Position numbers and translations under genes: made by a program
Part shown: positions 9,827 through 48,357 of the stretch, piece after piece
Layout of the letters: every line of letters starts with the position of its first letter
Position numbering within the stretch: the first letter of the stretch is position 1
Notes under the pieces: model-generated
The model's input: the letters and a program-made list of their open reading frames with translations, nothing else
Told to the model about the DNA's origin: nothing
Database searches by the model: none
Source of the DNA: a virus
IMG/VR virus record: IMGVR_UViG_3300008448_011290
DNA: 64,000 nucleotides
Reading direction: 5' to 3' (one strand)

Positions 9827-12800
9827 ATGGCTGATTCACCTATCAACAGCACAACTAATTACGAAGTTGTTACAGACAGTAACGGTGTGACTCTGAGAAG
9901 ATCCATAGCTCATCTGCCATCGTTCTATAGAACAGACAATAATCATAGATTTTTAACCAGCACTTTAGATCAATTAATACAACCAGGCAAATTAACAAGA
10001 TTAGATGGCTATGTTGGTCGTCAATATTCTTATACTAGACAAGCAGCTGACAGTTATATCGAAGCAACCAGCGAGGACAGAGCCAATTATCAATTAGAAC
10101 CTGCTGTGACCTACACAGACAAAGATACATCTTCTATCAATCCAGAAGACCAAGTTAAATTCACAGCCACCTATGATGATTATATTAATCAAATAAAATT
10201 CTTTGGTGGCAATGTTGATAATCATGATAGACTTAATAAAGAGATAGTGTATGCATGGAATCCTGCAGTAGACTTTGACAAATTAATCAATTACAGAGAA
10301 TACTATTGGTTGCCAGAAGGTCCAAATCCCATTTTAGTTTCTAATAACGGTACAAATTCAGTTACTGAGATATCAGTGGATCATGTGGGCAACACTGCTT
10401 ATACTTTCAGCACATATGATGGTGTACAAAATCCCACAATAACATTATACAGAGGTAACACTTACAAATTTGTATTAGATGTAGACGGTCATCCTTTCTA
10501 TATTATGACCGAACCATTTACCACGGGCATAGCCGAGGATGGCAGCACATCAGTGATTTATTCTTCAGCTGTGTCAGGCAATGGCACTGAGGTTGGTATT
10601 TTAACTTTTACGGTACCATCAGATGCACCAGACATATTGTATTATCAGTGTGGCAATCACCAAGCAATGCAGGGTATTTTAACAATTAAAACTATCACTG
10701 CTGTAACAAAAATAGATGTAGAGCACGAGATAGTAGGCACAAAGAATTATATCATGTCTTCAGGAATAAAACTGAGCAATGGTATGAAATTAAAATTTAT
10801 TGATAATGTGACCAGTGCAACATATAAAAATAAAGAATTTTATGTGGAAGGAGTGGGCGATCATATTACTCTAACAGATACTGCTCGATTAATCACACCA
10901 GAATCTTATTCTGCAGAGACCACAGAATTGTATGACACAGTGACTTACGATAGTAGACCTTATGCAATCAGTTTTTATAGACCCGAAACACCCGATTATA
11001 TCACAATCAAAAGAGACAGTCCAGATAACAATGCATGGAGTAGATATAACCGATGGTTTCATAAATCAGTAATAAAAACATCAGACGATGTTAATGGTAA
11101 TATTACCGCTTTATTAGAAACAGCTAGAGCCAAAAGACCCATAATAGAATTTGACTCAGGCATACAATTATATGATCACGGAACAGAAGGATTAAACTCT
11201 GTGGCCTTGATTGACACAGTGACCACAGATGTGTTCTCCACAGTGGTCAACTCTTCAGGATACATTGTGGACGGTATTTCTTTAGCACATGGCATGAGAG
11301 TATTATTCACAGCAGACACCGATTCAATAGTTAAAAATAGAATTTATAAAGTGAATTTTGTCACAGTGGGAGGTAACTCAGTAATAAATCTTACGCAAGA
11401 AGCAGATGGCATACCACAAGATGGTCAAACTGTGTATGCAGAGTTAGGAGCAAACTACCAAGGAAAAACTTTTTATTACAGTGAGTCTGAAAATGCATGG
11501 CAGCAAGGACAGACAAAAACAGCTCTAAATCAAAAACCTTTATTTTCTTTACAGGATAATAATGATATAAAATTTAATGATCAAACAGTGTATCAAAATT
11601 CTTCTTTTGCAGGTGCTGCTGTTTTTGAATATAAAATTTCAGAAACTTCTCCTGTGGATACAGTGTTAGGATTGAGAGTAAAATACAACACTATCAATAA
11701 TGTGGGAGATATTACTTTTACTTCTGATCTTGGATCGGGATCATTCACTTATAAGAGTGGAGACAAAGTGATATCTAAAAATTTTGGCACAGGTCATGTG
11801 CATTATATTATCAGTAGAACAGAAAATGAAGCCAAAACATCTTGGATTAAACGACTTGAAGACAGCAAACAACGAGTAATAAGAACATTCATTGTTGAAG
11901 CTAATGAATTAAGATTATTTCCTATCGATGTATTTGCGAACAGTGTGGAATTGGAAGATTTAGATGTACATGTAGATGTTAACTCTAAAGTACAGAATCT
12001 AAACACAGATTATACATTAGTAGATGGAACCACAAACAAATATATAAAATTTTCATATGATCTTTTGGTGGGAGACATAGTTAAAATACAATGTTACAGT
12101 GCAGCCAAAAGAGTTGTCGGCAAAGGTTTATATGAAATACCAGAAAATTTATCAGTCAATCCGTTCAACGAGCAGTTGAAAGATTTTACCTTTGGACAAA
12201 TATTAAATCATGTGCATGATATAAATGAAAAGAATGTTGAACTAACAGGAGATATACCTGGAGACAGTAATTTACGAGATTTGCCTGATGTAAGAACCAA
12301 AGGTGGAACCATAATACAACATTCAGCACCATTGCCTCAAGCTATGTTCTCATTAATAGATCAGAATGCCAATGCGATTTCTGCTATAGAATATTGTTCT
12401 TTAGAATATCAAAAATTTAAAGAAGGATTTCAATCTAATATCGATATTGGACGGTCCTATGAAGGAGATCCTGCTGCAGCAGTGGACGAAATAATCAAAA
12501 CCATGCATGGTGATCGCGGAATCAGTTTTCCATTCTTCTATGAAGACATGATAGGTTACGGAGAAAAAGTCAGCACAAGAACATACACAGTACAAGACAG
12601 CACAGAAACAGAGTACGCTATTGACAGTCAGTTTGATATCAATGTTTCCAGCAATCGAGCAGTCTATGTTTACCTTAACAACACACAATTATTACAAGGT
12701 TACGATTACACTTTTAGTGAAACCGAAGATAGTGTGAATATAACTGCTGCTCTCGTTGAAGGAGATGTGATTAAAATTAAAGACTACAGTGATACCACAG

Positions 12801-15800
12801 GCAGTTTTGTGCCACTAACACCAACAAAGGTGGGAATATATCCTCGATTTAAACCAGAAAAAATTCTTGATGACACATATTTAGAATCAACCTACGTGAT
12901 AGTGGGACACGATGGCAGCAAGACAGTGGCGTATGGAGACTACAGAGACGATATCTTATTAGAATTAGAGAGAAGAATTTATAACAATTGTAAAATTGTT
13001 TATGATTCAGCGTTATTGCCAGAAACAGAGGTGAGACCTTCTGGATTTACACAGGGAGATTATACTATAGGTGAAATCAATAATATTTTAAGTTACGATT
13101 TCTATTCTTGGGCAGGTAGAAATGCTGTGGACTATCAAAAGAATGAGATATATGATGATTCTAATGCTTTTACTTTTAATTACAGCAGCAATAAAGATTC
13201 TGTAAACAGCGAATATCTACCAGGACACTGGAGAGGCATATACAATTATTTCTATGACACGGATCGACCACACACTCATCCTTGGGAAATGTTAGGACAC
13301 AGTGAAAAACCCACGTGGTGGGAAGATACCTATGGTCCAGGACCATACAGCTCGGGCAACGAATTGTTATGGAATGATCTAGCAGCAGGCTATGACAGCG
13401 GCAAAGAATCAGCTGATCCTAGATATGTCAGATCAGACTTGTTAAATTATCTACCAGTGGACGAGAATGGACAATTGCTATCACCTATAGATTCAGGATT
13501 GATAGACAATTACGTATCAGCAGGTATTAATAAAGTATGGAAATTTGGAGATCACTCGCCGACAGAAACTGCTTGGAGAAGAAGTGCTCAATATCCTTTT
13601 GCTGTAATAAAATTATTAGCATTAACTCGACCAGCAAAATTCTTTGGATTATTTTTTGATAACAGTAGATTGGGTTTGAATGTTTCAGGTAATGTTATTG
13701 ACAGTGACACAGAAGTGGCACAGAATATACGCACAGCCAAATATCATTTGGAAACATCAACAGATAATGAAACCGGCACAACCACTCGTTATATTACCGG
13801 AGGATATCAACCGTTTGTTGTGAACTATCTAATTAAAAATGGATTAGATCCAGCAGTATTTTTCTATGATAAAATGAAAAATCTCAATGTACAATTAGCA
13901 TACAAATTGGGAGGATTCACAGACAAACAAAATTTAAGAATATTAACAGACAGTGTTAGTCCAGGATCCACAGCTGGCTCACAGTTTATACCAGATGAGA
14001 ACTATAAAATACTATTTAGAATCAGTAATCCAATAAACACATTTGAATATTCAGGAGTGCTGATAGAATTAAACACAGCCACCACAGGAGATGGCAGCAC
14101 ACTGGAAGGCGGATACAAAGTTATTGGTTATAACACAATCAAACCATATTTTAAAATATTTGAACCATTAAAAAATGGCAACAGTTATTCCATTGAAGCA
14201 GGCAATGCTCGAGCAACCATTTACAAGGATTATGGAAATGTAGAAAAAGTTGTAACCTATGGCACAGTGTTCAAAGATGTCCAATCGGTAGTGAATTTCC
14301 TAACAGGATATGGAAAATATTTAGAATCACAGGGATTTGTTTTTGATAAATTTTCTAGAGAATTAAAAGAAATTGCCAATTGGGAGATGTCATCCAAAGA
14401 ATTCTTATATTGGACAAGACAAGGATGGGCTCCAGGATCGGCTATTACACTAAGTCCAGGAGCTGAAGGATTTCATCTCTCAACCAAAGACAGTGTGATA
14501 GGAAGATTAAAGAATCTACAGGGAGAATACACAGTATTAGATTCTGCTGGTAGTACAGTTAACAGCAAATCAATTAGTACAAAACGCATAGGAACCACTT
14601 TTGAAATAATCAGCAAATTTCCAGAATCAGGCATATACAATATCACAATGAATGCTGTACAGAAAGAACACATTCTATTATTTGACAATATCACAGTGTT
14701 TTCGGATATTTTATTACAGTTAGCAACAGGATTCCGTCAACAGAGATTCCGATTAATTGGTTGGAAAACTGGAGACTGGAACGGTGATTATTATTCTCCA
14801 GGATTTGTTTTTGATGAAGCTCAAGTAGCAGCATGGACAGCTAATACTGATTATCAAATTGGCGATACAGTAGAATACAATGCTAAATTTTACACTTCTA
14901 AAGTTAATCATAATTCTGGAAACACGTTCGAATCAGATAAATGGCAGAAGAAGAAAGAAAAACCTGCTGCACAATTAATACCTAATTTTGATTATAAAAT
15001 TTCTCAGTTTAATGATTTTTATAACTTAGAGAGCAATAATTTTGATGAAGGTCAACAGAGATTGGCTCAGCATCTTACAGGATATCAATCTAGAAGTTAT
15101 CTAGACAATCTTTTCCTTAACGACGTTTCTCAATACAAATTCTATCAAGGATTTATTAGAGAAAAAGGTACTCTTAATGCTATTAATAAATTGGTTAAAG
15201 CAAAATTTTATGGAGAAAATATTGATCTTACTATCTATCCTGAATGGATGATTCGAGTGGGAGAATTTGGAAACACAGATAATAAAAAATTTGTTCAGAT
15301 TCGTATGCCTGACGATACATTTACTAATAATATACAGAGCATAGAAATATTAGACAATGTATCAGACTCGTTGGATTGGGAAAAATCTGTTAGAGTACTT
15401 ACTTCTGAATTATATAATAAAACTATAGAATATAACAGTCAAGAAACTTTCTCTCTGTATGATTACACTGAAGAAGGTACAGATAAAGACACAGTTCAAA
15501 AATTTAAAACAGCAGGATATCCTAGATTACTTGATGTGGATCACACTGCTTTTACGTCTACGGATCTGCTGAATCTTGATGTATCTTCTATAACCAAAAA
15601 CGATCTAGTATGGGTAGCAAAAAAAGATAACAATGATTGGGACGTATTAAGATTGACATCCACAGTTTTAAAAATTATTGCCATGCGATCCATTAACAAT
15701 GCTACTCAATTAGAAGTGATACTAACTGGCAATCATGATTTTGTGGCAGGCGATTATTTCTCAATACTAAACAGTCAAAGCACACAATTAAATGGAGTGT

Positions 15801-18800
15801 ATAAAGTATACAGCACACCTACCACAGCATCATTGATATTCAATTACAACAAATCGAATAGAATATCCAGCACAGTGGTATTATCAGATCAATCTACTAT
15901 AAACACCTATGGTAACATTTACAAATGGGTCAGCGTGAGATTTGACAGCATGGACAATGTTAATGACCGAATACCTTATAGCGTTTACAGAGATGTGGAC
16001 ACAGCAAATTTTGTTAATGGTGATAGAGTGTTTGCTGACAACAGTACGGGCAAATGGGCAATATATGAAAAAACAGATCCATACGAAACAAAATTATTGT
16101 TATCCCCAGATTCTGTAAACGAGCAATATTTTGGTTATCAAATAGTTGCTAGAAATGATAGTAGAACATTAATAGTAGCATCGCCAGGTGAAGGTCAAGG
16201 ACATATACATTTTCTCTATAGAGCAGAAAATCAACCAGGAAATTTATTCTCTTCTACCAGCAGTTATGAAATGAATGACGGAAATGATGCTACATCTCGT
16301 TTGGGAGAAACTTTAACAATTAGCACTGATGAAAATTACATTGCAGCAGGAGCTCCTTACACTAATACATTAGCAAATGACGGCAGTACCAGACACGAAA
16401 ATGCTGGATTAATAAAGATTTTTGCATGGAATAATGTAGACAAAAATTATTCTTTCTACAACACTGTGTTACCACCCACTGATGATAGCTCTACATTGAT
16501 AGATATGAATTATGGATGGGCCTGTGCCATAGCAGAACCTTCAGATGCCAGCACAGTTTCAACTAGACCAAAATTTCTTTTTGCGTCAGCTCCTGGACTA
16601 AACAACAATTCAGGAGTGGTATATGTGCATACTCTACAAAAAGATCTAGCAGACAGTACCATACCTGTATGGAGACAAGATTCTGCGATATACAGTACAG
16701 AATCAGGATCAGGCAAAAGATTCGGTCACAGATTAGCAGTCAACGATAATGCAGATATAATAGCAATCAGTAGTGTTGCTCCAGGCACTGCTGGACAGGT
16801 AGAAATATTTACAAAGAATAGTGTGAATGATGATGGCAGCAGCATAGAAGATGGCAGTACCAAACATATTTTTACTCATAGACAAACATTGAAAGGTGTA
16901 AATGCAGATGGTAGCACTCTAAACACCGCGTTTGGAGAAAGTATTTCTATGAGCATCAACGGAGAATTGCTCGTAATATCTGCTCCTGGAAAAGATCAAG
17001 GAGAGCAAAATGATGCTGGAGCAATCTATATCTATAAATGGAACGCTGATGGATCAACAAATACCTATACTCTACAACAGACTATTGTAGCTCCAGAGTC
17101 TTCTACTAATATGAGATTTGGATCCACAGTGCAAATTAATAGAGCAAATAATAGAATAGTGATAGGAGCTGAAAAATTTGGAAATAATAGAAGTATGCTT
17201 TTTGATAACGGAGCCACAACGTTTGATTTAGGAGATACAGATATAGTGGATCTTAACATAGGATCTGGAGGAGTGTTTACTGCTACAAAATATGATACAG
17301 AATTTGTAATAGATGACAAATTAGTTACAACGAATGTAGATGCCAATGACGATTTTGGCAGAGGAATATTCATAACAGACACAACAGTGTTTGTAGGATC
17401 ACCTCAGGATGATGTTTTAACAAACGATGGCAGCACATATAGACTAGATGAAGGAACTGTAACAATATTTGATCTTAAAGTGAGAAATTCTTATGCATGG
17501 ACGGCATTGTCTACTGAAACAAATCTTGTTAATGATAAAAAAGTAGATTCTTCTTTTATTTTTGATAGTGCAAATAATGAAATAATTGATTATTTAGATT
17601 ACTATGATCCTGTCAAAGGCAGAATACTGGGTATAGCCGACAGAGAAATTAACTACAAAACTGAATGGGATCCAGCAATATACAATATCGGAACCAAAGA
17701 TAAAACTGTCAATACAAAAACAGCATGGGGTGAAGAGCATGTGGGTGAAGTTTGGTGGAATATGAGCACTGTAAGGTGGGTTTGGTATGAACAACACGGT
17801 TTAGAATATCAAACTAAAAATTGGGGCAAATTATTTCCAGGATCATCAGTGGACATATATGAGTGGGTAGAATCAACTCTGTTACCATCTGAATGGAATC
17901 TGAGAGCAGACACAGTGCCGGGATTATCACAAGGAGTCTCTGGAAAACCTCTACATCCAGACAATACAGTTTTTACAGTGAAACAAAAATACAACACTAT
18001 TTCTGATAGTTTTGTTAATTATTATTATTTCTGGATAAAAAATTCTGTATTTTTGCCGGCAAAAAATAAATCAGCCACAGAAAGAAAGAACACTACAGCA
18101 TACGTGTCCAATCTAATAGAGAATCCATTAGCATCAGGAATAAAATATTATGCTATCACAGGAACAAACTCATTAATAACTTTTAATGTTAAAAATAGTT
18201 TAACTAATGATAATACAGTTCTTAATATAAATTATAAAAATAATAATAATGAAGACACAGCACACAGTGTATGGAAATTAATTAGAGAAGGTGACAAAGA
18301 TGATAGTCCAAATGCATTATTAGAGAAAAAATGGTGGGACAGTCTTGTGGGCAAAGATACGTCAGGCAACGAAGTACCAGATCTAACATTGCCAATCAAC
18401 CAACGATACGGAAATAGTGTTAGACCTAGACAGAGCTGGTATGTGGATAGATTTGCTGCTCTAAAAGAAATCGTAGATTACAGTAACAGCGTACTAAAAA
18501 CAAAAGAATTAGCCAACAGTATCAGTTACGCAAATTTAAATTCAGCAGATCCAGAACCCACAGAAGCTTCAGGCGAATGGGATCGTAGAGTTGAAAGTTA
18601 CGCAGATTTAACATACATCGATACTAGAGATATCAGCGGCATAATTGATGTATTAGTAGCTAGCGATGAAGAAAACAGCAAAGGTTCTTGGGCAATCTAT
18701 AACTGGAATCTTACAGAATGGATAAGAACGAAAGTACAGACATATAAGACGAGCACTTATTATAGTCTAGCTGATTGGTATGCTGATGGATATGACACAA

Positions 18801-21800
18801 ACACTGTGATTGACAAACAGGTTAACTATCAGTATGAAGTTGAGACTATAGATTTAGAAATTGGAAGAATTGTAAAAGTATTAAGAGCCGACACAGGCGG
18901 TTGGAAATTATTTGAACAAACTGCAGAAGGATTAAAAAATGTTGCCACACAAAATGGTACAATACAATTATCCAAAGCTCTGTATGACTATACTATTAAG
19001 AACACAGGATTTGATGCTGATGATACATTTGATGCTAATTTCTTTGACCAAGAACCCACAATTGAAACCAGAAATATTTTAACAGCTCTAAGAGATGATA
19101 TATTTGTGGGAGATCTAAAAATAGAATACAATAATATATTCTTTATTGGATTAAGAAAAGTATTAGAAGAACAATTATACGTGGATTGGTTGAATAAATC
19201 TTCGTTTATAAACGTAACCAACAGTCTAAGACCATTAGATCAGCGTAAGACTTATAGAGTGGGTAACGAAAACTTTGTAGAAGATTACATCAATGAAGTG
19301 AAACCTTTTCATACCAAGATAAGAGAATATAGATTAGGATATACCACTACAGAAACACAAGATGGAATCAACACAGACTTTGATCTTCCAGCATTTTATG
19401 ATGGCACTCGCATTAGGAATGTAGACGTGTCGGCAGATGTAGCATTAATGGCAAGTTACCCTTACCGTTTCTGGAGAGACAATTATAAAAAATATGTGGA
19501 TTCTATTGTGGTAACCAAAGGTGGTAGTGGATATATCACTGCTCCTACAGTTACACTAGTTGGAGGAACAACCAAATCAGTGGGACCGTTCACAGTGTTG
19601 GGTAGAAGTAACAGTGGACCAACATCAGGACAATCAGGATATTTTTATCCATTGTACACAGCAGCCGCAGATGCTGATCTAGCAGACAGTCAAGAGGGCG
19701 GAACAGGTACTAGCTCATTATTCACATTCAATGAATACCCAAGCATAGAGTTTTATATGCCAGACTCTGATCAAAATACAGCCATCACAGATAGACCTAC
19801 AGGATATGAAGTTTATACCACAGCAGACAATACTCAAGCCACAGCAAGAGCGATAATACAGAATGGATCTGTGACAAGAATACAACTATTAACACCAGGC
19901 AGTAACTACACAGCCACACCACGAGTAGTATTAACAGGCGGAGGTTCTGGAGGAGTTACACCAGCAGATGCTGCTCGAGCCTATGCCAATTTAAGGAATG
20001 ATCTTGTGAGAGATATCTCTACCACAATCAAATTTGACCGAGTACAATCCACAGCCACAGTGTTGGATTGGGTAGCAAATACAGCCTATGCATACAATGA
20101 TCTAATTAGATATGAAGACGGATTCTATAAAGTTAACAGTGGATTTACCAGCACAGAAGATTTCGATAACGGATTAACATATCTAACAAAATTGCGAGGC
20201 GATGAACCTTACATTACTGCTGCTGAAAGAACTCTAGGATTGTACCAACCAGATGCTGGCATGCCAGGCAACGAGTTATCTCAAGTGATGACAGGAGTAG
20301 ACTACGGCGGAGTTATGGTTACAGGATTAGCATTCAACAGTGGACAGGGTTGGGATAGATCGCCATGGTACGATAATCCTTGGGACACATATGGTTTAAG
20401 CCGAGTGAAAACATTCTATGGAGATGGTAGCTCTACAGCATTTACATTTGCAACTGCTCCGAGTGCGACCGATGTATACACTGTATACATAAATGGTGTG
20501 AGACAAACGTCACTGGTATTCCGAGGCGATGGATCTACCAAAACTTTCACAGTTATACCTGATGACAGCTCTGTGGTTGGCAACGGCGATGAAATACAGT
20601 TTATACCTTTTGATGATGACGGAGTACTAACACCCACAGATGATAAAACTCTAGATTCATTGATCAGCGGTGGTCTTTTTGGATCAGCGGTGGGAATAGC
20701 ACCGTCGGATATTATATTAGAAGGAGATGGATTCATAACACCAGAAACCAGCTATGCTCCAGAAGAGAATGTGCCAGGTTCAATGTTTGACACTGTGGAT
20801 ATCAAAGTTTATACCACACCAGAGTCCGGCGTGCCGTTTATTGTGAACAAAAATTATATCGGTGATGGTTTAACTCTAACTTATAACATAGGACAATATC
20901 CAGGAACAGATGATTCAGTGATAGTGACTGTGGATGGTCAAACCATGAGGCAGAATGACGAATACACAGTAGATGCTGCTGCAAAAACTATTACTTTTTT
21001 ATCAACACCGGTAAGTGGCAGCAAGATATCTATCAAGAGTTTTGCTGTGTCTGGAAGTAATTACATGGTATTGAACACTTTCATTGGAGACGGATCCACA
21101 GCATCATTCACAACATCTGCTAGAGAGACTTTCCAATTGGACAGTGCGGCCAGCCAACTATATGTCACTGTAGATGGTCAACCCACAACAGCATACAATT
21201 ACACAGTATCAGGCAAATTAATCACAATAACATTACATACTGGTGATGGATCTACTCTGTTGCCTCCAGCAGCAGGCAAATTAATACAGATATCATCATT
21301 CAATCAACCTGCGGGCAGTGGTAGAGCTTATGCTGAAGTTAGAAGTGAGCAGTTGACACACGATGGTACCAACAGATATACTTTGACATATCCTGCAGGT
21401 GCTATTGGACCATATTCAGGATTGACGCTTTTAGAAGTAGGCGGAAAAATATTGAGAGGACCAGACAATACCTACTATGCAGGCGATGGCAGCACCACAA
21501 GTTACAGTCTAGGCACAGATCCTGCCAACACAGTAACAGTAGCCAATGAAGTAGAAGTTTATGTCAACGGTTCTAAAAAATATCAGTTCACAGATTACAC
21601 AGTGAATATCGGTACACAACAGATACAGTTTGTGTCTGCTCCAAGTGGTACAGATGTTATTGCTGTGTCTGTACTATTGGATAATCATTATTACAACGAA
21701 GGATCAGATGTGATATTAAAACCAACACAACTGGCTGCTGATGGAATATCTTTGTCATCTGGAGATATATTTGTGGCCATAACATTTAACAATGCTGTGG

Positions 21801-22699: not shown

Positions 22700-22702
22700 A
22701 TA
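22697..22702 (+). promoter_or_regulatory. Putative late-promoter core TAAATA overlapping the upstream stop codon, 7 nt before ATG 22710
   Basis: Sequence gaaTAAATAcaacgcaATG; no Shine-Dalgarno between the motif and the ATG. Confidence 0.5.
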
Positions 22703-22709
22703 CAACGCA

Positions 22710-23372: not shown

Positions 23373-23377
23373 AATAA

Positions 23378-24598: not shown

Positions 24599-24623
24599 TA
24601 CTGTATGGAAAATATTGTATTAA

Positions 24624-24652
24624 TTGACAGCAATAACAAATACATTTATAAT
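24624..24652 (+). promoter_or_regulatory. Perfect sigma70-type promoter TTGACA-N17-TATAAT
   Basis: TTGACA 24624-24629, 17-nt spacer, TATAAT 24647-24652, 20 nt upstream of ATG 24673. Confidence 0.8.
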
Positions 24653-24672
24653 ATTATAGAGAGACTATAAAA

Positions 24673-25650: not shown

Positions 25651-26138
25651 TGAATTTAGATAAAGGAAAGTTTATTAATGCAGTATTTGCCAGCAGCAAA
25701 AAGAAATTAATTCTAGCAATTTGGCAAGACATCGAAACCAAACAACAGCACGAAATAGCAATAGAAACAGATCTTAACAATAAAATGTATGTTAAATTAT
25801 TAGAAACTTTCACCACAGACGAGATTTCTACAATGACAGATCAAAAACGCAAACATGCAGCAAAAAGTTGGGAATTAATAGTGAAAGATATTGCTGAAAA
25901 ATATGGTTTAATATATGATCCTTCAGCAACTAATCCTCAAGACAAATTGGTTATAGATCATTTATTCAATCCTCCAGAGGGAGAAGCAGGTATGGAATTA
26001 TTATTCAATACTAAATTAAAAATATTTGATCTTCCACAAGTAACTCAATCCACTAATTCTGAATTAAAGAAAAAACTTAGAGAAGCAAAAACTCCTTTAG
26101 AATCTCTATATATTGCCGGAAAATTTCTATACGAATAG
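25650..26138 (+). CDS. Hypothetical protein
   Basis: 162-aa ORF translationally coupled (TAATG) to the upstream gene. Confidence 0.6.
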   Translation: MNLDKGKFINAVFASSKKKLILAIWQDIETKQQHEIAIETDLNNKMYVKLLETFTTDEISTMTDQKRKHAAKSWELIVKDIAEKYGLIYDPSATNPQDKLVIDHLFNPPEGEAGMELLFNTKLKIFDLPQVTQSTNSELKKKLREAKTPLESLYIAGKFLYE

Positions 26139-26825
26139 ATTATATTTTGCCCAATCATGAGGATGATTATCCATGTGGGTAAAATGAACAAATTTAATTT
26201 CAGGATAAAATTCATTGCCTAAGAACATATAAGGATTACCGGTTACTTCGTTATAGCGACGATTTAACATAGTTAATGTATGACGTGCAAAATGTCTTTC
26301 TCGAGCTTCCATTCTACAGAACCATGCTTTCGGCAGTGTTACTAGTTTTAATTGTTCTCTCACAGAATCTTCTATAAAATGCTGTTCGCCATTAACTGGT
26401 CCAGATGTATAACCTTCTTCGATATATTTCTTTTGCCAATGTATAGGGTCTTTTATAAACTTTTTATAAATGTAATGACAATCACGAGGATAGTATTTGT
26501 AGAATCCACCATTGATAGTAAATCTTTCTTTTTCTTCACCTTTAAGATCTCTCCACCAACCGGGTGCAGCTAAGAATTCTCCAGGCTGTATGGGATATTC
26601 AAATATTTTTTTATAATCATTGATTAATAGTATATCAATATCTATGACACAAATAGGTTCATCTTGTTCCAGAGTCATGCCATACATTTTGTTCCATTGT
26701 AATTTAATGTTGTCAGACATAGGAGATCTGATCCAATGAAACTCATATTCGGGTAATTTAGATTCCAAATATTTCTCATATTCAGGTCCGTATCTATCAC
26801 CAATTCTAACTGCTATTATTTTCAT
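26127..26825 (-). CDS. Glycosyltransferase-like protein (GT-A, DxD)
   Basis: IIAVRIGDRYGPEY, WNKM, IDID, NGGFY, GEQHFI, FVHF; paralog of 28006-28674. Confidence 0.65.
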   Translation of the reverse strand: MKIIAVRIGDRYGPEYEKYLESKLPEYEFHWIRSPMSDNIKLQWNKMYGMTLEQDEPICVIDIDILLINDYKKIFEYPIQPGEFLAAPGWWRDLKGEEKERFTINGGFYKYYPRDCHYIYKKFIKDPIHWQKKYIEEGYTSGPVNGEQHFIEDSVREQLKLVTLPKAWFCRMEARERHFARHTLTMLNRRYNEVTGNPYMFLGNEFYPEIKFVHFTHMDNHPHDWAKYNLFV

Positions 26826-28018
26826 TATATTTTTTTGATAGCCATTTGATTATTTTTTGGTAAATTTAATATCTCTATGTTTTTAGAATATTTTTTTAAG
26901 AAATTGTCCACAGCAGGTTTAGGAGTTAAGTTAATATCTTCGTTGATTTCATTAGTATTAAAATTTTTAGATTGCCAACCATGTGCATCATCAATTAAGA
27001 TTATTCCGTTTGTTGATAACATGTTATAACTTAATTCGAGATCATTACTCACAGTGTTTGATCGATGATCACCATCGATGTAAACAAAATCAAACTGTCT
27101 TTTAATTTCAATCATATGATTTAATGTTTCTAAGGATGAAAGTTTGTGGAAACATATATTTTTTTTATTTTTGCATATAGATAAATTGTTTCGCCAATTT
27201 TTTTCTACTTGATCAAAGTAATTCTGTTCAAGATCATAGACCGAGCTATTAAATGGATCTATTGTGTCTATTTTTAAATCAGCATAGTGATCTGCCAACC
27301 AAAGTGTATATCTTCCTTCAAATGTACCTATTTCTAAAACGTTCTTAGGAAGTCCGTGATTTTTAAAAAGATATTTGGTATTTTCTATCGCTGATTTGGT
27401 CCAATCTGTGTTAAAAACATATTGATTAAATTTAGCAACATATTCTTGTATGGACATTCTTGGTCTGTCAAAGTTTTTTATATCACCTCTGTAATAAATG
27501 TATCTCCAGCTGTAAGGGTCTTCAGGTCTTTTCCCTACCAAATACAGCATAGGATCATCATTTATCCATCCAGACTGTTTAGGGAATAAAGTTTTAGATA
27601 TGTTTTCTCCTGGATTTCTAGAGATAAAATAAAAATCATATTTTTTCATTTCTTTGCAATCATTATTGAAAAGTATATTTGAAGCATCAAGATAAATTTT
27701 TTTTAGTAACCACCATGGTGTGAGTTTGGAGTATTTTGGGTTTGCAAAAAATTTAGTGCAACATCTTATTACATTCTCTTTGTATTTGCCACCATTAACT
27801 GCAGTGCATGAATAAGCTGGTTCCCCATTGATAATAGCACACATAAAATATTCATCATCATTGGATCGAATAGCTTTGTCTGCTTTTTTTTGTTTAGCGA
27901 TGTGTTGCAGATATTCAAACTCGTTATATAATTGATCTCCAACCATGTATGTTACGTCAAATTTTAAGTTATTTTTTTCAATTTGATAATTCTGTTCAAA
28001 ATACATTATTCTACCCAA
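26825..28018 (-). CDS. Two-domain protein: unknown N-terminal domain plus class I SAM-dependent methyltransferase (Methyltransf_24-like)
   Basis: C-terminal half has VLEIGTFEGRYT, IDPF, FDFVYIDGDH and GIILIDD. Confidence 0.75.
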   Translation of the reverse strand: MGRIMYFEQNYQIEKNNLKFDVTYMVGDQLYNEFEYLQHIAKQKKADKAIRSNDDEYFMCAIINGEPAYSCTAVNGGKYKENVIRCCTKFFANPKYSKLTPWWLLKKIYLDASNILFNNDCKEMKKYDFYFISRNPGENISKTLFPKQSGWINDDPMLYLVGKRPEDPYSWRYIYYRGDIKNFDRPRMSIQEYVAKFNQYVFNTDWTKSAIENTKYLFKNHGLPKNVLEIGTFEGRYTLWLADHYADLKIDTIDPFNSSVYDLEQNYFDQVEKNWRNNLSICKNKKNICFHKLSSLETLNHMIEIKRQFDFVYIDGDHRSNTVSNDLELSYNMLSTNGIILIDDAHGWQSKNFNTNEINEDINLTPKPAVDNFLKKYSKNIEILNLPKNNQMAIKKI

Positions 28019-28674
28019 TAGTCTTTAATCCAAGAATTAATTTCTTGCTGTTTGCTGCCATGATTCAATATACATACCTCATACTCTTTTCTCAATTTCT
28101 CAGGAGTGGTATCTTTGCCAAATCTAACACCTTGCCAATAAGAATAAGCAATGGAGGTAGGCAATAAGTCTACCTGCACAGGTTCATTGAAAAGATATCT
28201 GTCTATACCTTGATATTTGAACAATATCATGTCTTTATTTTTTTGAAAATAATCGTGTACTTCTAAACCTTGATTATCTTGCCATTTCATTATAGAGGAG
28301 TTATACAATGTTGGAAATTTTTCTGTAGCTCTGGGAGAAACATACCCTTCTTTCCATTGTGAATATAAAACAGATAGTGTTCTTGTTTTTACTGAGAACA
28401 AACGTTCTAAGGGATTGAGTATTAATACATCAAGATCAAATAGTATATTTTCTCCTTGATTGAATAATTTTAAAAGATCTAACTTTAACCACCAATGTGT
28501 AAGATCAGTTTTAATTTTTACAATGTTAACTTCTTTTCTAATATCCGTAGAATTTTCAGTGTAACAATAGAAATTAAATGGTTCTCCATGAGAATTTTTT
28601 AATACCATGGAATACAACCTATTCACGTATTCAGCAGAATACTTGTCTCCCCATTTCACGCACACTATATTCAT
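28006..28674 (-). CDS. Glycosyltransferase-like protein (GT-A, DxD)
   Basis: MNIVCVKWGDKYSAEYVNRLYSMV, FYCYTE, WWLKLDL, FDLDV, YNSSIMKW, GIDRYL. Confidence 0.7.
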   Translation of the reverse strand: MNIVCVKWGDKYSAEYVNRLYSMVLKNSHGEPFNFYCYTENSTDIRKEVNIVKIKTDLTHWWLKLDLLKLFNQGENILFDLDVLILNPLERLFSVKTRTLSVLYSQWKEGYVSPRATEKFPTLYNSSIMKWQDNQGLEVHDYFQKNKDMILFKYQGIDRYLFNEPVQVDLLPTSIAYSYWQGVRFGKDTTPEKLRKEYEVCILNHGSKQQEINSWIKDYWVE

Positions 28675-28680
28675 GAATAT

Positions 28681-28689
28681 ATTATAGCA
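28681..28689 (-). promoter_or_regulatory. Extended -10 promoter (TGcTATAAT) 6 nt upstream of ATG 28674; probable leaderless transcript
   Basis: Minus strand reads TAATTAatcaaacTGcTATAATatattcATG. Confidence 0.6.
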
Positions 28690-28699
28690 GTTTGATTAA

Positions 28700-29494
28700 T
28701 TAATTAAAAGAATATTTTGTTATATCGCTAATTTTTGCTTGAGAAAATGCTTTTTTTCTTTCTTGGCAATTTCTACAATTACCACAATGATCTTCATTTT
28801 CTGAAACATCACAAGATTTTGTTTGGTATAACTCATTTAATAAATTCATTTTATCATATAACTGTATGATTTCCATGTCATTTAAATTGCGAAATGGCCG
28901 AACCATAGAATAAAAACTTTTTTGTAGCTCATTGAATTCTACCATGCTGTTTGTAAAAGGTATAGGAAGATTAAAATTCTCTATGGCATAATTTAATGTT
29001 TCGTATTTTTTTGCATTGTCTTTGACATATACAGGTAATTGTCCTCGAGTAATTAATCCTTTGCTCCATCCACTCTCCGTCAGCATCTCCATGGTTTCTT
29101 CGTGTATCTTGCTGTATCCTGCAATGCTATATTTTACGGAAGGAAATCTATTTAAAATTTTTTTACTTTGTTCTAGATGCATTTGTTTATGTATAGTGAA
29201 TGATTCATTGCCAATTTCAAACTTGTGTATACCACCTAATCTTTTGAAGCTATCCTCATGATTTTTTTTACTATATAATTTTTTAGAATTATTTTTAAAA
29301 TTTCCATATGCGTCCATAGATATAAATCCAAATATTATATTTTTAATGCCATAAAGCTCTTTAGCAATCAAAGCCACTAGAGTAGATTTTATACCTCCAC
29401 TGAACAGGACTACTATTTTGTCCTCAGTATTGATTTGTGGGAACTCTGCAAGATCAAATATCTTTTTATTTTTTAATTTATAAGAACTATCCAT
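28700..29494 (-). CDS. QueC-like PP-loop ATPase (7-cyano-7-deazaguanine synthase fold), divergent
   Basis: KIVVLFSGGIKSTL (PP-loop with D>K) and C-terminal TKSC...HCGNCRNCQERKKAF zinc motif; the start is probably ATG 29494 (MDSSYK), overlapping the radical SAM stop. Confidence 0.65.
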   Translation of the reverse strand: MDSSYKLKNKKIFDLAEFPQINTEDKIVVLFSGGIKSTLVALIAKELYGIKNIIFGFISMDAYGNFKNNSKKLYSKKNHEDSFKRLGGIHKFEIGNESFTIHKQMHLEQSKKILNRFPSVKYSIAGYSKIHEETMEMLTESGWSKGLITRGQLPVYVKDNAKKYETLNYAIENFNLPIPFTNSMVEFNELQKSFYSMVRPFRNLNDMEIIQLYDKMNLLNELYQTKSCDVSENEDHCGNCRNCQERKKAFSQAKISDITKYSFN

Positions 29495-30503
29495 TGTCAA
29501 CTTTCTCTTCAGTGTGATGCCACAGTGTTTTTTGTGGTATCTTCTTTCCTTTTGATTCAATTACGTGAACCTGTGATCCTGTGCATCTCTGATGACATAT
29601 AGATCCTAAATCTTCGTACATTGTTTTTAACCAATCATTGAACACTTCATCATTTAATATTTCAAAAATGCCTCTATGATGCAATGATATAGTGTATTTA
29701 TCTTTGTGTATTTTCCAATTATTTGATTTGTAAAATTTTGATGCAGTCCAACAGCAAGGGAATAATCTACCCCATGAATCCACATAAATCTCTTTTCTGT
29801 GTTTGTGAAGACAGATCAGTGGTCCTCGGTGTTGCATGTGTTCTATATTAAATCTATCTGCTGTGGGAGGATAGATTGATTTCTTTTTATTGTTTTTATC
29901 TTCATATAAAAAGGGTTTTTTAAAATCTTTAAATCGAGCAGATATTTTTAAAACAAAATCAGAGAAGCCCATTTCTTTAGCGATATTTTCAGCTTCTTCC
30001 ACTTGATGTTCATTATGAAAAAAAGGTATAAAAAACCATTTGGCATTAGCACCGGTGCTTATGAATGCTCGAGCATTATCCATTAGTTTATTCCATTTTA
30101 CTCCTATACGATATAGATGATTGGTATCTTCTAATCCATCGATGTGAAATTCCACAAAAGATTTAGGAGTTTTTTTATAAATTTCTCCCAGCTCTTGCCA
30201 AAATTCTGTAGTTCTTATACCTCCATTAGTGCTGAGTGTTATCAATATATCGGGATTAGATTCTAGAACGTATCGATGTATCTTTAAGAGATCTGTTGCC
30301 ACTGCTGGATCACCAAAATTGCCACAAAATTTAATTTTTTTTAATTGAGCAATAAAATCTGATGAAAAGAATTTTTTAAAATCATTGAATGAAATCTCCG
30401 ACTGATTATCCAGTATAATAGGGTTATTGGTTCTAGAACACATAGGACATTTAGCGTTGCAACGGCTGGTTAATTCTATGTGTACTGAGTCTATTTTATC
30501 CAT
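29487..30503 (-). CDS. Radical SAM protein with C-terminal SPASM/twitch-like domain
   Basis: IELTSRCNAKCPMC, FCGNFGDP, STNGG, IDG; C-terminal C...GRLFPCCW...CHQRC. Start placed at MDKIDS (30503) because a promoter -10 box lies just upstream. Confidence 0.85.
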   Translation of the reverse strand: MDKIDSVHIELTSRCNAKCPMCSRTNNPIILDNQSEISFNDFKKFFSSDFIAQLKKIKFCGNFGDPAVATDLLKIHRYVLESNPDILITLSTNGGIRTTEFWQELGEIYKKTPKSFVEFHIDGLEDTNHLYRIGVKWNKLMDNARAFISTGANAKWFFIPFFHNEHQVEEAENIAKEMGFSDFVLKISARFKDFKKPFLYEDKNNKKKSIYPPTADRFNIEHMQHRGPLICLHKHRKEIYVDSWGRLFPCCWTASKFYKSNNWKIHKDKYTISLHHRGIFEILNDEVFNDWLKTMYEDLGSICHQRCTGSQVHVIESKGKKIPQKTLWHHTEEKVDNG

Positions 30504-30509
30504 GCTTAT

Positions 30510-30538
30510 ATTATACATTTATATATGGACAACAGCAA
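30510..30538 (-). promoter_or_regulatory. sigma70-type promoter TTGCTG-N17-TATAAT, 6 nt before ATG 30503, with TATAAAT inside the spacer
   Basis: Minus strand TTGCTG ttgtccatatataaatg TATAAT ataagc ATG. Confidence 0.6.
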
Positions 30539-30596
30539 GGGTCTATTGGACTAATATGCTCATATAAACTAAAAGACCCAATCTACGGAAAGACAA

Positions 30597-30602
30597 TAAA
30601 TA
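30597..30602 (+). promoter_or_regulatory. Putative late-promoter core TAAATA, 4 nt before ATG 30607
   Basis: Sequence caaTAAATAcggtATG; no Shine-Dalgarno. Confidence 0.55.
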
Positions 30603-30606
30603 CGGT

Positions 30607-32109: not shown

Positions 32110-32114
32110 TCACC

Positions 32115-34399: not shown

Positions 34400-34418
34400 T
34401 TAATAAGGAGATACAACA

Positions 34419-34598
34419 ATGGCAATAACAAAACAACAGGTGGCAGATTATATCAATGCCAATTATCAAACTGCTCTTTCAGAAGAAGATCTAGTTAAAA
34501 TAGATCAAGCATTAACGCCTGAGCTGGCAGCGATTTTAATCAAGTTACTAGGAGATGTAAGTTTCTTAGTGCATGTGAGAGATAACGAAAGCAATTAA
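34419..34598 (+). CDS. Small hypothetical protein (59 aa), absent from the ORF track
   Basis: AAGGAG Shine-Dalgarno, then MAITKQQVADYINANYQTALSEEDLVKIDQALTPELAAILIKLLGDVSFLVHVRDNESN*; fills the gap exactly. Confidence 0.75.
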   Translation: MAITKQQVADYINANYQTALSEEDLVKIDQALTPELAAILIKLLGDVSFLVHVRDNESN

Positions 34599-34604
34599 AA
34601 AAGA

Positions 34605-36230: not shown

Positions 36231-36231
36231 A

Positions 36232-37257
36232 ATGGGTTATGTAGCAGGCGATAGAATTACCGTAACAGAATACAATCAGCAATTATTAAGTAATGCTACA
36301 CTTGGAGGATATGGTATCAATCATATCATAGGACAAGGAGAATTGTATCATGGTTTAGGAGAAGTAGGAGTAACCGCAATATCCCAAGGACAAGAAGTCA
36401 CTGCCACTCAATGGAATTCACTGTTCACTGCTATGGATAACCTAGCCAACCATACCAATGACACTCTAACTTCCACAAGTCAAAGATCCGCAGGTGACCT
36501 TATCGAAGTTAAATCCGCTCTAATAGCAGATCTACAAACTCTAGCAGCATCGGTACAGGCAGGTTGTCCCAATGCCACAGCATTAACTACCACAGCAGCT
36601 CAGCAGACCACAGCAGCATCGGCTCGTTGGAACGTGTCTCATATCGTAGAGCAATCAATCACATTTAATGCTCCTGATGCAATGAGATGGTTTTTTAATG
36701 CGGGAGGAAAAATACAGATCAACGTGACCAGAACCAGTAACTCAGGCAACGTAGCATCTGCAAAAGACCAAGCCATTGATGACTTAATCGATTCACTGGG
36801 AGATTTTAAAATCAAATCTCAATCATCAGAATATTCCAATGATGGATCAACTAATACAAACACCCTAGGAGACGGCAGCTCAGCCTATGATTTAAACATT
36901 GGTTTTTACGATCTTACTACCAACTATCAAACCATACTGATATTAAGACAAGACTGGCAGACCTATGAGTTTATGAACATTAAAATTGAAGCAAAATTAG
37001 ATGCTGCTCCAGGCACAGCAATGACAATGACTGTGAGAACCTCTCTGTTAGATCCATTTATTGATGGATCATCAGCTGCAACAGCAGACAACACATATAC
37101 CTCAGGCAACACAGCATCGGTAGATCAGTATGCCAACTGGATTGGTGTTACCAACGTAGTTTTATACTTTGTAAATCCTACCACAGCAGAAGGATTGAAC
37201 ACAGTATACACACCTGCCTCATCAGCAGTGATTTCCAACAATATCGTTACAATATAA
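36232..37257 (+). CDS. Probable virion structural/fibre-associated protein
   Basis: Thr/Ala-rich; VTATQWNSL; MRWFFNAGGKI; IGFYDLTTNYQ; carries one DGST and two DGSS. Confidence 0.6.
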   Translation: MGYVAGDRITVTEYNQQLLSNATLGGYGINHIIGQGELYHGLGEVGVTAISQGQEVTATQWNSLFTAMDNLANHTNDTLTSTSQRSAGDLIEVKSALIADLQTLAASVQAGCPNATALTTTAAQQTTAASARWNVSHIVEQSITFNAPDAMRWFFNAGGKIQINVTRTSNSGNVASAKDQAIDDLIDSLGDFKIKSQSSEYSNDGSTNTNTLGDGSSAYDLNIGFYDLTTNYQTILILRQDWQTYEFMNIKIEAKLDAAPGTAMTMTVRTSLLDPFIDGSSAATADNTYTSGNTASVDQYANWIGVTNVVLYFVNPTTAEGLNTVYTPASSAVISNNIVTI

Positions 37258-37621: not shown

Positions 37622-37622
37622 T

Positions 37623-48356: not shown

Positions 48357-48357
48357 A

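What the first reader, a model, noticed from the sequence alone, without database searches (positions are those of the whole stretch)
10538..37074. Tetrapeptide D-G-S-T occurs 17 times in three virion proteins, in unrelated contexts and codons: candidate modification sequon
Seen: DGST occurs 14 times in the 4290-aa protein (codon starts 10538, 14090, 16379, 16850, 16907, 17048, 17426, 20528, 21089, 21245, 21485, 22382, 22481, 22508). It also occurs twice in the 325-aa protein (25093, 25189) and once in the 341-aa protein (36841), with near-variants DGSS, DDSS, DAST and DQST. I found no DGST in gp6, the hub, gp5, the three fibre paralogs or the enzymes. A rough composition estimate gives well under 1 expected copy in 4290 aa. 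About four copies are starts of GDGSTxxF/Y repeat domains. The rest look like loop insertions in non-homologous modules (cupredoxin-like domain, propeller blades, e.g. NDDGSSIEDGSTKH, WNADGSTNTY). Ser is encoded by both AGY and TCN codons, so this is not a DNA repeat and points to protein-level selection. Inference: a surface-exposed acceptor motif for the neighbouring glycosyltransferase/radical-SAM machinery. Alternatives are a favoured xDG(S/T) beta-hairpin turn or a metal-binding loop.
Basis: partly seen in the sequence, partly recalled or inferred. Interest (0 to 1): 0.85.

Follow-up and report, generated by a model that had tools for sequence, protein, structure and literature searches.

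The report
DGST hairpin-tip motif on phage baseplate
An uncultured freshwater jumbo phage and over 100 relatives keep the four-residue motif Asp-Gly-Ser-Thr at the tips of many unrelated surface hairpins of a giant baseplate protein, which looks like a tag read by a modifying enzyme, though no modification has been shown.

Summary
DGST occurs 14 times in the 4290-aa protein, twice in the 325-aa protein and once in the 341-aa protein, at the stated codons, and in none of the other 47 ORFs. Composition predicts 0.19 copies in the giant, and no shuffle gave any 4-mer more than 5 copies.

DGST is the commonest 4-mer in all 120 listed homologs (54-100% identity, 6-19 copies). Six cultured orthologs have none. 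Every site in the two structure models is the tip of a beta-hairpin.

About seven C-terminal sites descend from the generic GDGxTxxF hairpin of T7-tail-fibre-like domains. The N-terminal and propeller sites are lineage-specific, and some are insertions. Ser and Thr in the motif are conserved far more than other Ser/Thr, or than residues after other DG turns. Subclade-specific loop insertions often carry DGST.

This favours a motif read in trans, most likely a Ser/Thr modification sequon (about 0.42). A self-stabilising hairpin staple is the close rival (about 0.35).

The link to an enzyme is weak. The only confident GT-like gene is absent from close relatives that keep 14 DGST, and no glycosyltransferase is confirmed in the conserved sugar/radical-SAM cluster.

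First readers of this scan noted the same enrichment in related genomes.

The parts
9827..22699 (+). 4290-aa giant virion protein in the slot after the gp6-like wedge protein. It is the ortholog of PA5oct gp355, Atu_ph07 gp180 and RaK2 gp465, and carries 14 DGST.
10538..10549 (+). DGST site aa 238. DGST in 101/114 homologs. Not conserved in relatives at 30-39% identity.
14090..14101 (+). DGST site aa 1422. DGST in 89/114 homologs. It lies in a loop that is a gap in 47/57 distant relatives and in most cultured orthologs.
16079..17551 (+). Integrin-alpha-like seven-blade FG-GAP beta-propeller (aa 2085-2575). It carries DGST at aa 2185, 2342, 2361, 2408 and 2534, plus DDSS 2219, ADST 2275 and DGSS 2336, which are DGST in many homologs.
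16379..16390 (+). DGST aa 2185. Tip of a mini-hairpin between blade strands, at the same blade position as aa 2534.
16850..16861 (+). DGST aa 2342. In a 12-residue hairpin loop (pLDDT about 54), next to the subclade insertion NDDGSS.
16907..16918 (+). DGST aa 2361. In the loop that leads into the next blade's FG strand. Homologs have DGSS (58) or DGST (41).
17048..17059 (+). DGST aa 2408. Tip of a blade hairpin. Ser is invariant in 114 homologs. The position is a gap in 26/53 distant relatives.
17426..17437 (+). DGST aa 2534. Mini-hairpin tip. Homologs switch between Ser codons AGC and TCA.
20369..22696 (+). C-terminal array of small beta-sandwich domains (aa 3515-4290) that begin with a GDGxTxxF hairpin. 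They resemble the T7 tail-fibre N-terminal domain, DUF2460 and XD domains.
20528..20539 (+). DGST aa 3568. Domain-start hairpin tip. DG-x-T in distant relatives.
21089..21100 (+). DGST aa 3755. Domain-start hairpin tip. DG-x-T in distant relatives.
21245..21256 (+). DGST aa 3807. Lies in a short insertion present in only about 20 of 114 homologs, 18 of which read DGST there.
21485..21496 (+). DGST aa 3887. Domain-start hairpin tip. DGST in 97/114 homologs.
22382..22393 (+). DGST aa 4186. Domain start. DGST in 100/114 homologs. Not modelled.
22481..22492 (+). DGST aa 4219. Lineage-specific and not conserved in distant relatives. Not modelled.
22508..22519 (+). DGST aa 4228. Lineage-specific. 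Not modelled.
24673..25650 (+). 325-aa protein of unknown family in the baseplate/fibre gene block. It has DGST at 25093-25104 and 25189-25200, conserved in 105/106 and 98/106 homologs.
36232..37257 (+). 341-aa last protein of the fibre gene block. Its single DGST (36841-36852) lies in a variable loop and is not conserved in the four relatives found.
25650..30518 (.). Variable cassette: p162 on the + strand, then on the - strand GT-like p232, a methyltransferase, GT-like p222, a QueC-like protein and a radical SAM enzyme. Only a diverged QueC-like gene remains in relatives L012/L014, which keep 14 DGST. The cassette is therefore not the reader of the motif.
37307..54785 (.). Conserved sugar-tailoring/radical-SAM cluster directly after the last fibre gene. 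It holds DxD-containing candidate GT-A proteins, five radical SAM/SPASM enzymes, a carbamoyltransferase, SDR epimerases, a DegT aminotransferase and a PIG-L deacetylase. It is the candidate source of a modifying group, and the link to DGST is only inferred.

Best explanation
DGST is a recognition motif displayed on the tips of exposed beta-hairpins of the outer baseplate protein and of at least one partner protein (325 aa). A trans-acting phage enzyme reads it and modifies the Ser (or Thr) hydroxyl. The most likely modification is O-glycosylation in the cytoplasm during late gene expression, using an unusual amino sugar made by the conserved cluster after the fibre genes. In this reading, Asp-Gly forms the tight turn that presents Ser-Thr. 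The lineage first used the pre-existing GDGxTxxF hairpin of its T7-tail-fibre-like domains by fixing x as Ser. It then created further sites by converting or inserting loops elsewhere.

Shown: the enrichment, its conservation, the hairpin-tip location, the lineage-specific gains, and the restriction to proteins of the baseplate/fibre gene block within the 70 kb available. Inferred: that anything reads the motif, that the modification is a glycan, and which enzyme does it.
For: (1) The giant has 14 copies against 0.19 expected. DGST is the commonest 4-mer in all 120 listed homologs, with 6-19 copies.
(2) Motif positions are conserved at D .93, G .85, S .90 and T .87 (+S .10). In the query, motif Ser and Thr are retained at .88/.81, against .47/.59 for other Ser/Thr and .48/.52 for the two residues after other DG turns. 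The flanks are free.
(3) The six cultured orthologs have 0 DGST, and their DG turns show no preference for S/T afterwards.
(4) In relatives at 30-39% identity with the same propeller and core, the N-terminal and propeller sites are variable or gapped. The exact motif is therefore not required by the fold.
(5) At the ancestral domain-start hairpins, distant relatives have DG-x-T with a free x (Ser 30-47%). This lineage fixes Ser.
(6) Of the 18 subclade-specific insertion segments listed, six contain DGST in at least one member. One of these is a whole-domain duplication. Parsimony needs at least 313 gains or losses over 35 sites.
(7) A second, unrelated protein keeps two DGST in 98-105 of 106 homologs.
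(8) D.ST occurs 0 times in 9,995 aa of non-structural proteins (1.7 expected, not significant), 7 times in other structural proteins and 19 times in the giant.
(9) The 17.5-kb sugar/radical-SAM cluster follows the last fibre gene on the same strand with no terminator-like site between them. It is conserved in all three related contigs that also hold a giant (G004, G005, G006), and also in G003, where no giant was found.
Against: - No modification has been observed.
- Every modelled site has the same local geometry (strand, x-D-G-S-T-x, strand). Asp-Gly is a classic tight-turn pair, and Gly is replaced mainly by Asp, which also tolerates that conformation. A purely structural optimum could therefore be reached repeatedly (turn preferences from my own knowledge).
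- D, G and T at domain starts are ancestral and structural.
- The five fibre-like proteins, gp6 and the hub have no DGST.
- The 341-aa site is not conserved.
- The only confident GT-like gene is dispensable.
- No GT in the conserved cluster passes any threshold.
- RsoM2USA has homologs of p265 and of a radical SAM enzyme, yet shows no DGST in the 1343 C-terminal residues of its giant ortholog or in 15 neighbouring proteins.
- All DGST-rich proteins belong to one clade, so co-occurrence with the cluster is a single evolutionary event.
Confidence: 0.42

Rival explanations
1. DGST is a self-contained structural 'hairpin staple'. Asp-Gly makes a tight turn, and the Asp carboxylate and the Ser/Thr hydroxyls cap each other and the backbone. 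This gives rigid, fast-folding, protease-resistant loop tips in a 4290-aa all-beta protein. Nothing reads it. It would be comparable to the Asp-box of sialidase-type propellers.
For: All 13 modelled motif positions (9 DGST and 4 near-variants) are hairpin tips with the same six-residue non-strand segment. Hydrophobic residues are preferred at -3 and Phe/Tyr at +6, as expected for flanking strands. Gly is replaced mainly by Asp. The GDGxTxxF hairpin is generic to the T7 tail-fibre N-terminal and DUF2460 domains: 32 and 42 of 48 homolog segments match PF03906 and PF09343. DGST is already the commonest variant at these sites in distant relatives. No reader enzyme was identified.
Against: Relatives with the same folds use unrelated or no loops at the non-C-terminal sites. 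DG turns in six orthologs are not followed by S/T. Ser is strongly preferred over Thr at position 3 (.90 against .05), and Thr over Val/Ile/Ser at position 4. Beta propensity alone does not predict this. The trait is shared by a whole lineage and spreads across unrelated loops and a second protein.
Confidence: 0.35
2. DGST loops are small ligand sites. They would bind a metal ion (Ca2+ or Mg2+) or a host surface sugar through the Asp carboxylate and the Ser/Thr hydroxyls, giving the baseplate periphery many weak adhesion or stabilisation points.
For: The propeller is integrin-alpha-like, and in integrins the propeller loops bind Ca2+. The conserved side chains are all oxygen donors. A CBM_5_12-like segment elsewhere in the protein suggests glycan contact.
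Against: There is only one acidic residue per motif. The integrin DxDxDGxxD pattern is absent, and the loop equivalent to the integrin Ca2+ site is a short DGTT/NGEL turn. Isolated hairpin tips do not form a pocket. Nothing could be tested directly.
Confidence: 0.08
3. DGST hairpins are docking points for other virion proteins, for example the conserved N-terminal domains of the fibre paralogs. This would resemble the XD domains of CBA120 TSP2/TSP4, which hold other tailspikes.
For: The C-terminal domains resemble the CBA120 TSP4 N-terminal region and a Klebsiella phage baseplate protein. The fibre paralogs share an N-terminal module (phrog_15511/14394).
Against: The motif also sits on three loop classes of the propeller, in N-terminal insertions and in the 325-aa protein. 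Site numbers fluctuate between 6 and 19 among close relatives, which is hard to reconcile with fixed stoichiometric docking.
Confidence: 0.05
4. The repeats reflect a DNA-level feature, either a duplicated oligonucleotide or a sequence motif, rather than protein-level selection.
For: There is a perfect association of Gly and Ser codon classes within the 14 copies.
Against: The same codon-pair rule holds for all other Gly-Ser dipeptides in the window (GGA-TCN 46 against GGA-AGY 2; Fisher p=2e-8). Eleven different 12-mers encode the 14 copies. There is synonymous variation, and a switch of Ser codon class, among homologs.
Confidence: 0.01

Closest known systems
Virion O-glycosylation of mycobacteriophages by phage-encoded glycosyltransferases (Freeman et al. 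2023, as summarised in PMC12619734)
   Same: Phage-encoded sugar enzymes lie next to structural genes. The proposed targets are Ser/Thr of virion proteins.
   Different: There the glycans sit on the C-termini of the capsid and tail-tube subunits, and the summary I read names no sequence motif. Here a strict tetrapeptide sits on hairpin tips of a baseplate protein, no glycan has been shown, and no GT is confirmed.
Bacteroidota general O-glycosylation sequon D-(S/T)-(A/L/V/I/M/T) (PMC12871550)
   Same: It is a short motif with an essential Asp upstream of the acceptor Ser/Thr, enriched above chance in the target proteins. The paper calls it the only known bacterial O-glycosylation motif.
   Different: There Asp directly precedes the acceptor, and the system acts only on non-cytoplasmic proteins, in the periplasm. 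DGST has Gly between Asp and Ser and sits on cytoplasmically assembled virion proteins. Only the minor variants xDST fit that sequon.
Asp-box (S-x-D-x-G-x-T-W) of sialidase-type beta-propellers (from my own knowledge)
   Same: It is a recurrent beta-hairpin motif with conserved Asp, Gly and Thr. It occurs repeatedly in propellers and in other folds, is surface-exposed, and has no known catalytic role.
   Different: The spacing differs (D-x-G-x-T-W against D-G-S-T) and there is no Trp. Asp-boxes occupy one equivalent position per blade. Here three loop classes, non-propeller domains and a second protein carry the motif.
GDGxTxxF N-terminal hairpin of T7 tail-fibre N-terminal (PF03906), DUF2460 and XD-type domains
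   Same: About seven C-terminal positions, four of them DGST in the query, are this hairpin. D, G and T are conserved in relatives at 30-39% identity.
   Different: In the wider family x is free. In this lineage it is Ser at about 90%, and the full tetrapeptide has spread to loops outside this domain.
Integrin alpha FG-GAP propeller Ca2+ loops (DxDxDGxxD)
   Same: The propeller fold is the same (Foldseek E 3.5e-15, TM 0.6), and the loops contain Asp-Gly.
   Different: The multi-Asp calcium pattern is absent, and the motif occupies different loops.

Membership tests
Statistically enriched, conserved sequence motif (real feature rather than chance) | Count far above the composition and shuffle expectation | tested here: met
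   14 against 0.19 expected; the largest count of any 4-mer in 1000 shuffles was 5
Statistically enriched, conserved sequence motif (real feature rather than chance) | Conserved across homologs beyond background | tested here: met
   Commonest 4-mer in all 120 listed homologs; motif Ser/Thr retained at .88/.81 against .47/.59 for other Ser/Thr
T7 tail-fibre N-terminal / DUF2460-type domain with GDGxTxxF hairpin | Profile match to PF03906 / PF09343 | tested here: inconclusive
   32/48 and 42/48 homolog segments match at E<=0.1 (best 4.5e-10 and 8.7e-10). The query segment itself matches only DUF2460 at E 8e-4, below the curated cut-off
T7 tail-fibre N-terminal / DUF2460-type domain with GDGxTxxF hairpin | D-G-x-T at the first hairpin of each domain, kept in distant relatives | tested here: met
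FG-GAP / integrin-alpha beta-propeller | FG-GAP profile match and seven-blade propeller fold | tested here: met
   PF14312 E 4e-13; AF2 pLDDT 86; integrin alpha chains as top PDB hits, E 3.5e-15
FG-GAP / integrin-alpha beta-propeller | DxDxDGxxD calcium loops | tested here: not met
   The pattern is not present in aa 2050-2620
Asp-box | S-x-D-x-G-x-T-W spacing with a terminal Trp | tested here: not met
   The motif is x-x-D-G-S-T-x. Position +4 is variable and not Trp. S/T at -2 occurs in only 37%
Bacteroidota O-glycosylation sequon | Asp immediately before the acceptor Ser/Thr, followed by A/L/V/I/M/T | tested here: not met
   Gly separates Asp and Ser in 85% of cases; motif definition from PMC12871550
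Bacteroidota O-glycosylation sequon | The target is a non-cytoplasmic protein | not tested
   I did not look for signal peptides. Tailed-phage virion proteins are assembled in the cytoplasm (established knowledge)
N-glycosylation sequons (N-x-S/T; D/E-x-N-x-S/T) | An Asn acceptor | tested here: not met
   The motif has no Asn
Phage virion glycosylation system | A phage-encoded glycosyltransferase that co-occurs with the targets | tested here: inconclusive
   p222 is GT-like (phrog_1962, E 4e-8) but absent from DGST-rich relatives. The cluster candidates reach only GT2 E 0.14
Phage virion glycosylation system | A glycan detected on the virion protein | not testable with these tools
   Needs mass spectrometry or glycan staining; the phage is uncultured
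PKD domain (WxFGDGS) | A PKD profile match | tested here: not met
   No PKD family among the Pfam hits

The most novel reading that the evidence does not exclude
DGST is the first defined sequence-and-structure sequon for a post-translational modification of a phage virion. A cytoplasmic phage transferase recognises the Asp-Gly hairpin tip and attaches to Ser an unusual, aminoglycoside-like sugar built by the five radical-SAM enzymes, the carbamoyltransferase, the aminotransferase and the deacetylase of the adjacent cluster. The lineage then tunes the density of this coat by gaining and losing DGST loops. Earlier notes of this scan report that other jumbo-phage lineages carry different Ser/Thr-Gly motifs. 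If so, this would be one dialect of a widespread, undescribed virion-decoration code.
Probability: 0.3. Interest if true: 0.88.

Novelty: new variant of a known kind. Interest (0 to 1): 0.66.

Why it matters
O-glycosylation in bacteria generally has no sequence motif, and the Bacteroidota system is described as the only exception (PMC12871550). The account of phage virion glycosylation that I read names no sequence motif (PMC12619734). If DGST is read by an enzyme, sites on phage virions could be predicted from sequence, and the question would become directly testable. One could express a single 90-aa DGST domain, or the 325-aa protein, with the candidate genes and weigh it.

It would also assign a substrate to a striking radical-SAM/amino-sugar cluster in an abundant freshwater jumbo-phage lineage. 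If the motif is purely structural, it is a new Asp-box-like hairpin staple, useful for protein design and for annotating giant phage proteins. Either way it is a robust marker of this lineage.

Tried and rejected
- **DNA-level repeat:** rejected.
- **[S/T]-G-x-T motif reported by this scan for other lake jumbo phages:** not enriched here, at 1.2-1.3x in structural proteins.
- **Co-occurrence test in more distant relatives with 0-7 DGST:** failed, because their contigs are only 17-20 kb.
- **Proteome-wide test (capsid, sheath and so on):** not possible. The genome held is a 70.8-kb fragment, and only a limited amount of any one metagenome record may be fetched.
- **Confirming GT-A identity of the cluster proteins:** Pfam, PHROGs, NCBIfam, the Atlas and a PDB profile search gave at best GT2 E=0.14.
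- **PDB profile search with the C-terminal domains:** only spurious hits.
- **Literature search for 'DGST' with 'phage':** no papers.
- **'Moraphages' (PMC12619734):** an aquatic jumbo-phage lineage with Bacteroidota hosts. I could not establish that this phage belongs to it.
- **Independent test case, RsoM2USA:** homologs of p265 and of a radical SAM enzyme, but no DGST in the region examined. Only the last 1343 aa of its giant ortholog were read.
- **Solvent exposure:** not computed, because no model coordinates are available.
Full report
**Observation**

There are 14 DGST in the 4290-aa ORF (9827-22699), two in the 325-aa ORF (24673-25650) and one in the 341-aa ORF (36232-37257). There are none in the other 47 ORFs or in the 6.5 kb upstream.

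From the giant's own composition 0.19 copies are expected. The next 4-mer that does not overlap DGST has 3 copies. In 1000 shuffles no 4-mer exceeded 5 copies.

Eleven different 12-mers encode the 14 copies. Ser is AGY at 10 sites and TCN at 4. The perfect Gly/Ser codon-class pairing within the motif is a window-wide codon-pair bias of all Gly-Ser dipeptides. Homologs vary synonymously and even switch Ser codon class at one site. The signal therefore lies at the protein level.

**What the protein is**

The giant follows a gp6-like wedge protein. It is the ortholog (24-30% identity over about two thirds of its length) of the 'virion structural protein' of PA5oct, Atu_ph07, RaK2, CBB, SCTP-2 and a Vibrio jumbo phage, in the same gene position. 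The PA5oct protein is annotated as detected by ESI-MS/MS.

Residues 2085-2575 model with pLDDT 86 as a seven-blade, integrin-alpha-like FG-GAP propeller. Residues 3515-4290 are an array of small beta-sandwich domains. Each starts with x-G-D-G-x-T-x-x-F/Y. Their homolog segments match the T7 tail-fibre N-terminal domain and DUF2460. The best structural matches are the N-terminal region of CBA120 TSP4 and a Klebsiella phage baseplate protein.

**Conservation**

A database search gave 408 relatives, of which the best 120 (54-100% identity, all metagenomic) were listed. DGST is the commonest 4-mer in every one of these, with 6-19 copies against about 0.2 expected.

An alignment of the 114 full-length members shows about 20 positionally conserved sites. 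Position frequencies are D .93, G .85, S .90 and T .87 (plus S .10). The flanks are free, with a hydrophobic preference at -3 and Phe/Tyr at +6.

Motif Ser and Thr of the query are retained at .88/.81. Other Ser/Thr are retained at .47/.59, and the two residues after the 24 other DG dipeptides at .48/.52. Gly is replaced mainly by Asp (DDST), and less often by Glu, Gln, Ala or Asn.

The two sites of the 325-aa protein are DGST in 105 and 98 of 106 homologs. The 341-aa site lies in a variable loop and is not conserved.

**Where the motif came from**

The six cultured orthologs have no DGST, and their DG dipeptides show no preference for S/T afterwards. An exhaustive search with the C-terminal 791 residues found about 980 relatives. 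Full-length ones at 30-39% identity carry 0-7 DGST.

In these relatives the domain-start hairpins read DG-x-T, with a free x (Ser 30-47%). D, G and T there are therefore ancestral and structural. By contrast, sites 3807, 4219 and 4228, and all N-terminal and propeller sites, are unconserved or fall in gaps. Site 1422 is a gap in 47 of 57 relatives, and site 2408 in 26 of 53.

Within the lineage, six of the 18 listed subclade-specific insertion segments contain DGST in at least one member, one of them a duplicated domain. Parsimony on a maximum-likelihood tree needs at least 313 gains or losses over 35 sites, and many sites were gained repeatedly.

**Local structure**

In both models every DGST or near-variant lies in a six-residue non-strand segment, x-D-G-S-T-x, between two strands. 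That is the tip of a beta-hairpin.

In the propeller the copies occupy three loop classes at blade-equivalent positions:
- 2275, 2342 and 2408
- 2185 and 2534
- 2219 and 2361

In the C-terminal array the copies occupy the first hairpin of each domain, plus one inserted loop. Sites 238, 1422, 4186-4228 and those of the 325-aa protein were not modelled. Solvent exposure could not be computed because coordinates are not returned.

**Neighbourhood**

Two enzyme blocks lie nearby.

The first is a cassette at 25650-30518. It holds two GT-like DxD proteins (p222 matches phrog_1962 'glycosyltransferase' at E 4e-8), a methyltransferase, a QueC-like protein and a radical SAM enzyme. It is present in some relatives (L009, L015). 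It is missing from L012/L014 apart from a diverged QueC-like gene, and the giant there still has 14 DGST.

The second is a 17.5-kb cluster at 37307-54785, directly after the last fibre gene on the same strand, with no terminator-like site between them. It holds three pairs of DxD-containing paralogs or candidates, five radical SAM/SPASM enzymes, a carbamoyltransferase, two SDR epimerases, a DegT aminotransferase and a PIG-L deacetylase. It is conserved at 67-83% DNA identity in all four related contigs that reach that far.

None of its candidate transferases passes a threshold in Pfam, PHROGs, NCBIfam, the Atlas or a PDB profile search; the best result is GT2 at E 0.14.

The DGST-free isolates lack p222. 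Ralstonia phage RsoM2USA has homologs of p265 and of one radical SAM enzyme, in a similar gene order. It shows no DGST in the 1343 C-terminal residues of its giant ortholog or in the 15 neighbouring proteins.

**Interpretation**

Two readings remain close.

For a motif that is read in trans:
- The fold does not require the exact tetrapeptide, since relatives differ.
- Ser at position 3 and Thr at position 4 are held much more tightly than turn geometry or beta propensity would explain.
- The trait belongs to a whole lineage. It has spread over unrelated loops, new insertions and a second protein.
- In the DNA available it is confined to proteins of the baseplate/fibre gene block.

For a purely structural staple:
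- The hairpin-tip geometry is identical at every modelled site.
- Asp-Gly is a classic turn pair, and the main substitute for Gly is Asp.
- The GDGxT hairpin is ancestral.
- The fibre proteins lack the motif.
- No reader enzyme has been identified.

I put a Ser/Thr modification sequon, most likely O-glycosylation fed by the conserved cluster, at about 0.42. The structural staple is at about 0.35, a small ligand site at 0.08, protein docking at 0.05, and a DNA-level cause at 0.01 or less.

**Comparison with what is known**

- The Bacteroidota sequon needs Asp directly before the acceptor and acts on non-cytoplasmic proteins (PMC12871550). DGST fails the first of these.
- It is not an Asp-box (different spacing, no Trp). 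It is not an integrin calcium loop, an N-glycosylation sequon or a PKD motif.
- Mycobacteriophage virion glycosylation is the nearest functional precedent, but it sits on C-termini, and the summary I read names no sequence motif (PMC12619734).

**Relation to other notes of this scan**

First readers noted the same DGST enrichment in related genomes. My homolog counts confirm it. Follow-up reports describe different Ser/Thr-Gly motifs in other jumbo-phage lineages. The [S/T]-G-x-T motif is not enriched here. These notes are leads only, not evidence.

Noticed in passing
whole window (all ORFs): There is a strong codon-pair rule for Gly-Ser dipeptides. GGA is followed by TCN (47 against 2 AGY) and GGC by AGY (30 against 2 TCN). 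This suggests avoidance of particular junction sequences.
   Followed up: partly
window 25650-30518; L012 15560-17136; L014: The cassette between the 325-aa gene and the first fibre gene is a variable island. It holds p162, two GT-like proteins, a methyltransferase, a QueC-like protein and a radical SAM enzyme. Two close relatives carry only a 193-aa ORF and a QueC-like gene at 35% identity there.
   Followed up: yes
window 40250-47453: Five tandem radical SAM genes. Three of them have a Pfam SPASM match N-terminal to the radical SAM core, the reverse of the usual order. The other two show only the radical SAM core in Pfam.
   Followed up: no
L024 (Ralstonia phage RsoM2USA, MG752970.1 208277-233080): This cultured 344-kb phage has the same layout: a giant structural protein, then fibre-sized genes, then an overlapping operon containing a homolog of p265 (29% identity). 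A radical SAM homolog lies elsewhere in its genome. It is a possible experimental model for the cluster.
   Followed up: partly
window 37623-40377, 51845-53173, 26127-28674: There are three pairs of paralogs with conserved DxD-like motifs: p252/p265, p309 with the C-terminal half of p442, and p222/p232. All lack family assignment. p309 has 6691 metagenomic homologs, all labelled hypothetical.
   Followed up: partly
homologs P0015-P0021, P0024, P0028, P0029 (alignment columns 4320-4673): One subclade of the giant carries a roughly 350-aa insertion in the C-terminal array. The insertion contains no DGST, and these proteins have fewer DGST overall (6-11).
   Followed up: no
window 1194-3374: The 726-aa virion-type protein (phrog_11190) has a weak match to the colicin/pyocin DNase domain (E 9e-4, below the cut-off).
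   Followed up: no
P0197, P0121 (homologs of the 325-aa protein): Identical or near-identical copies of this gene lie on contigs of 335.8 kb and 164.7 kb. Complete genomes of this lineage (about 336 kb) therefore probably exist in public assemblies.
   Followed up: no
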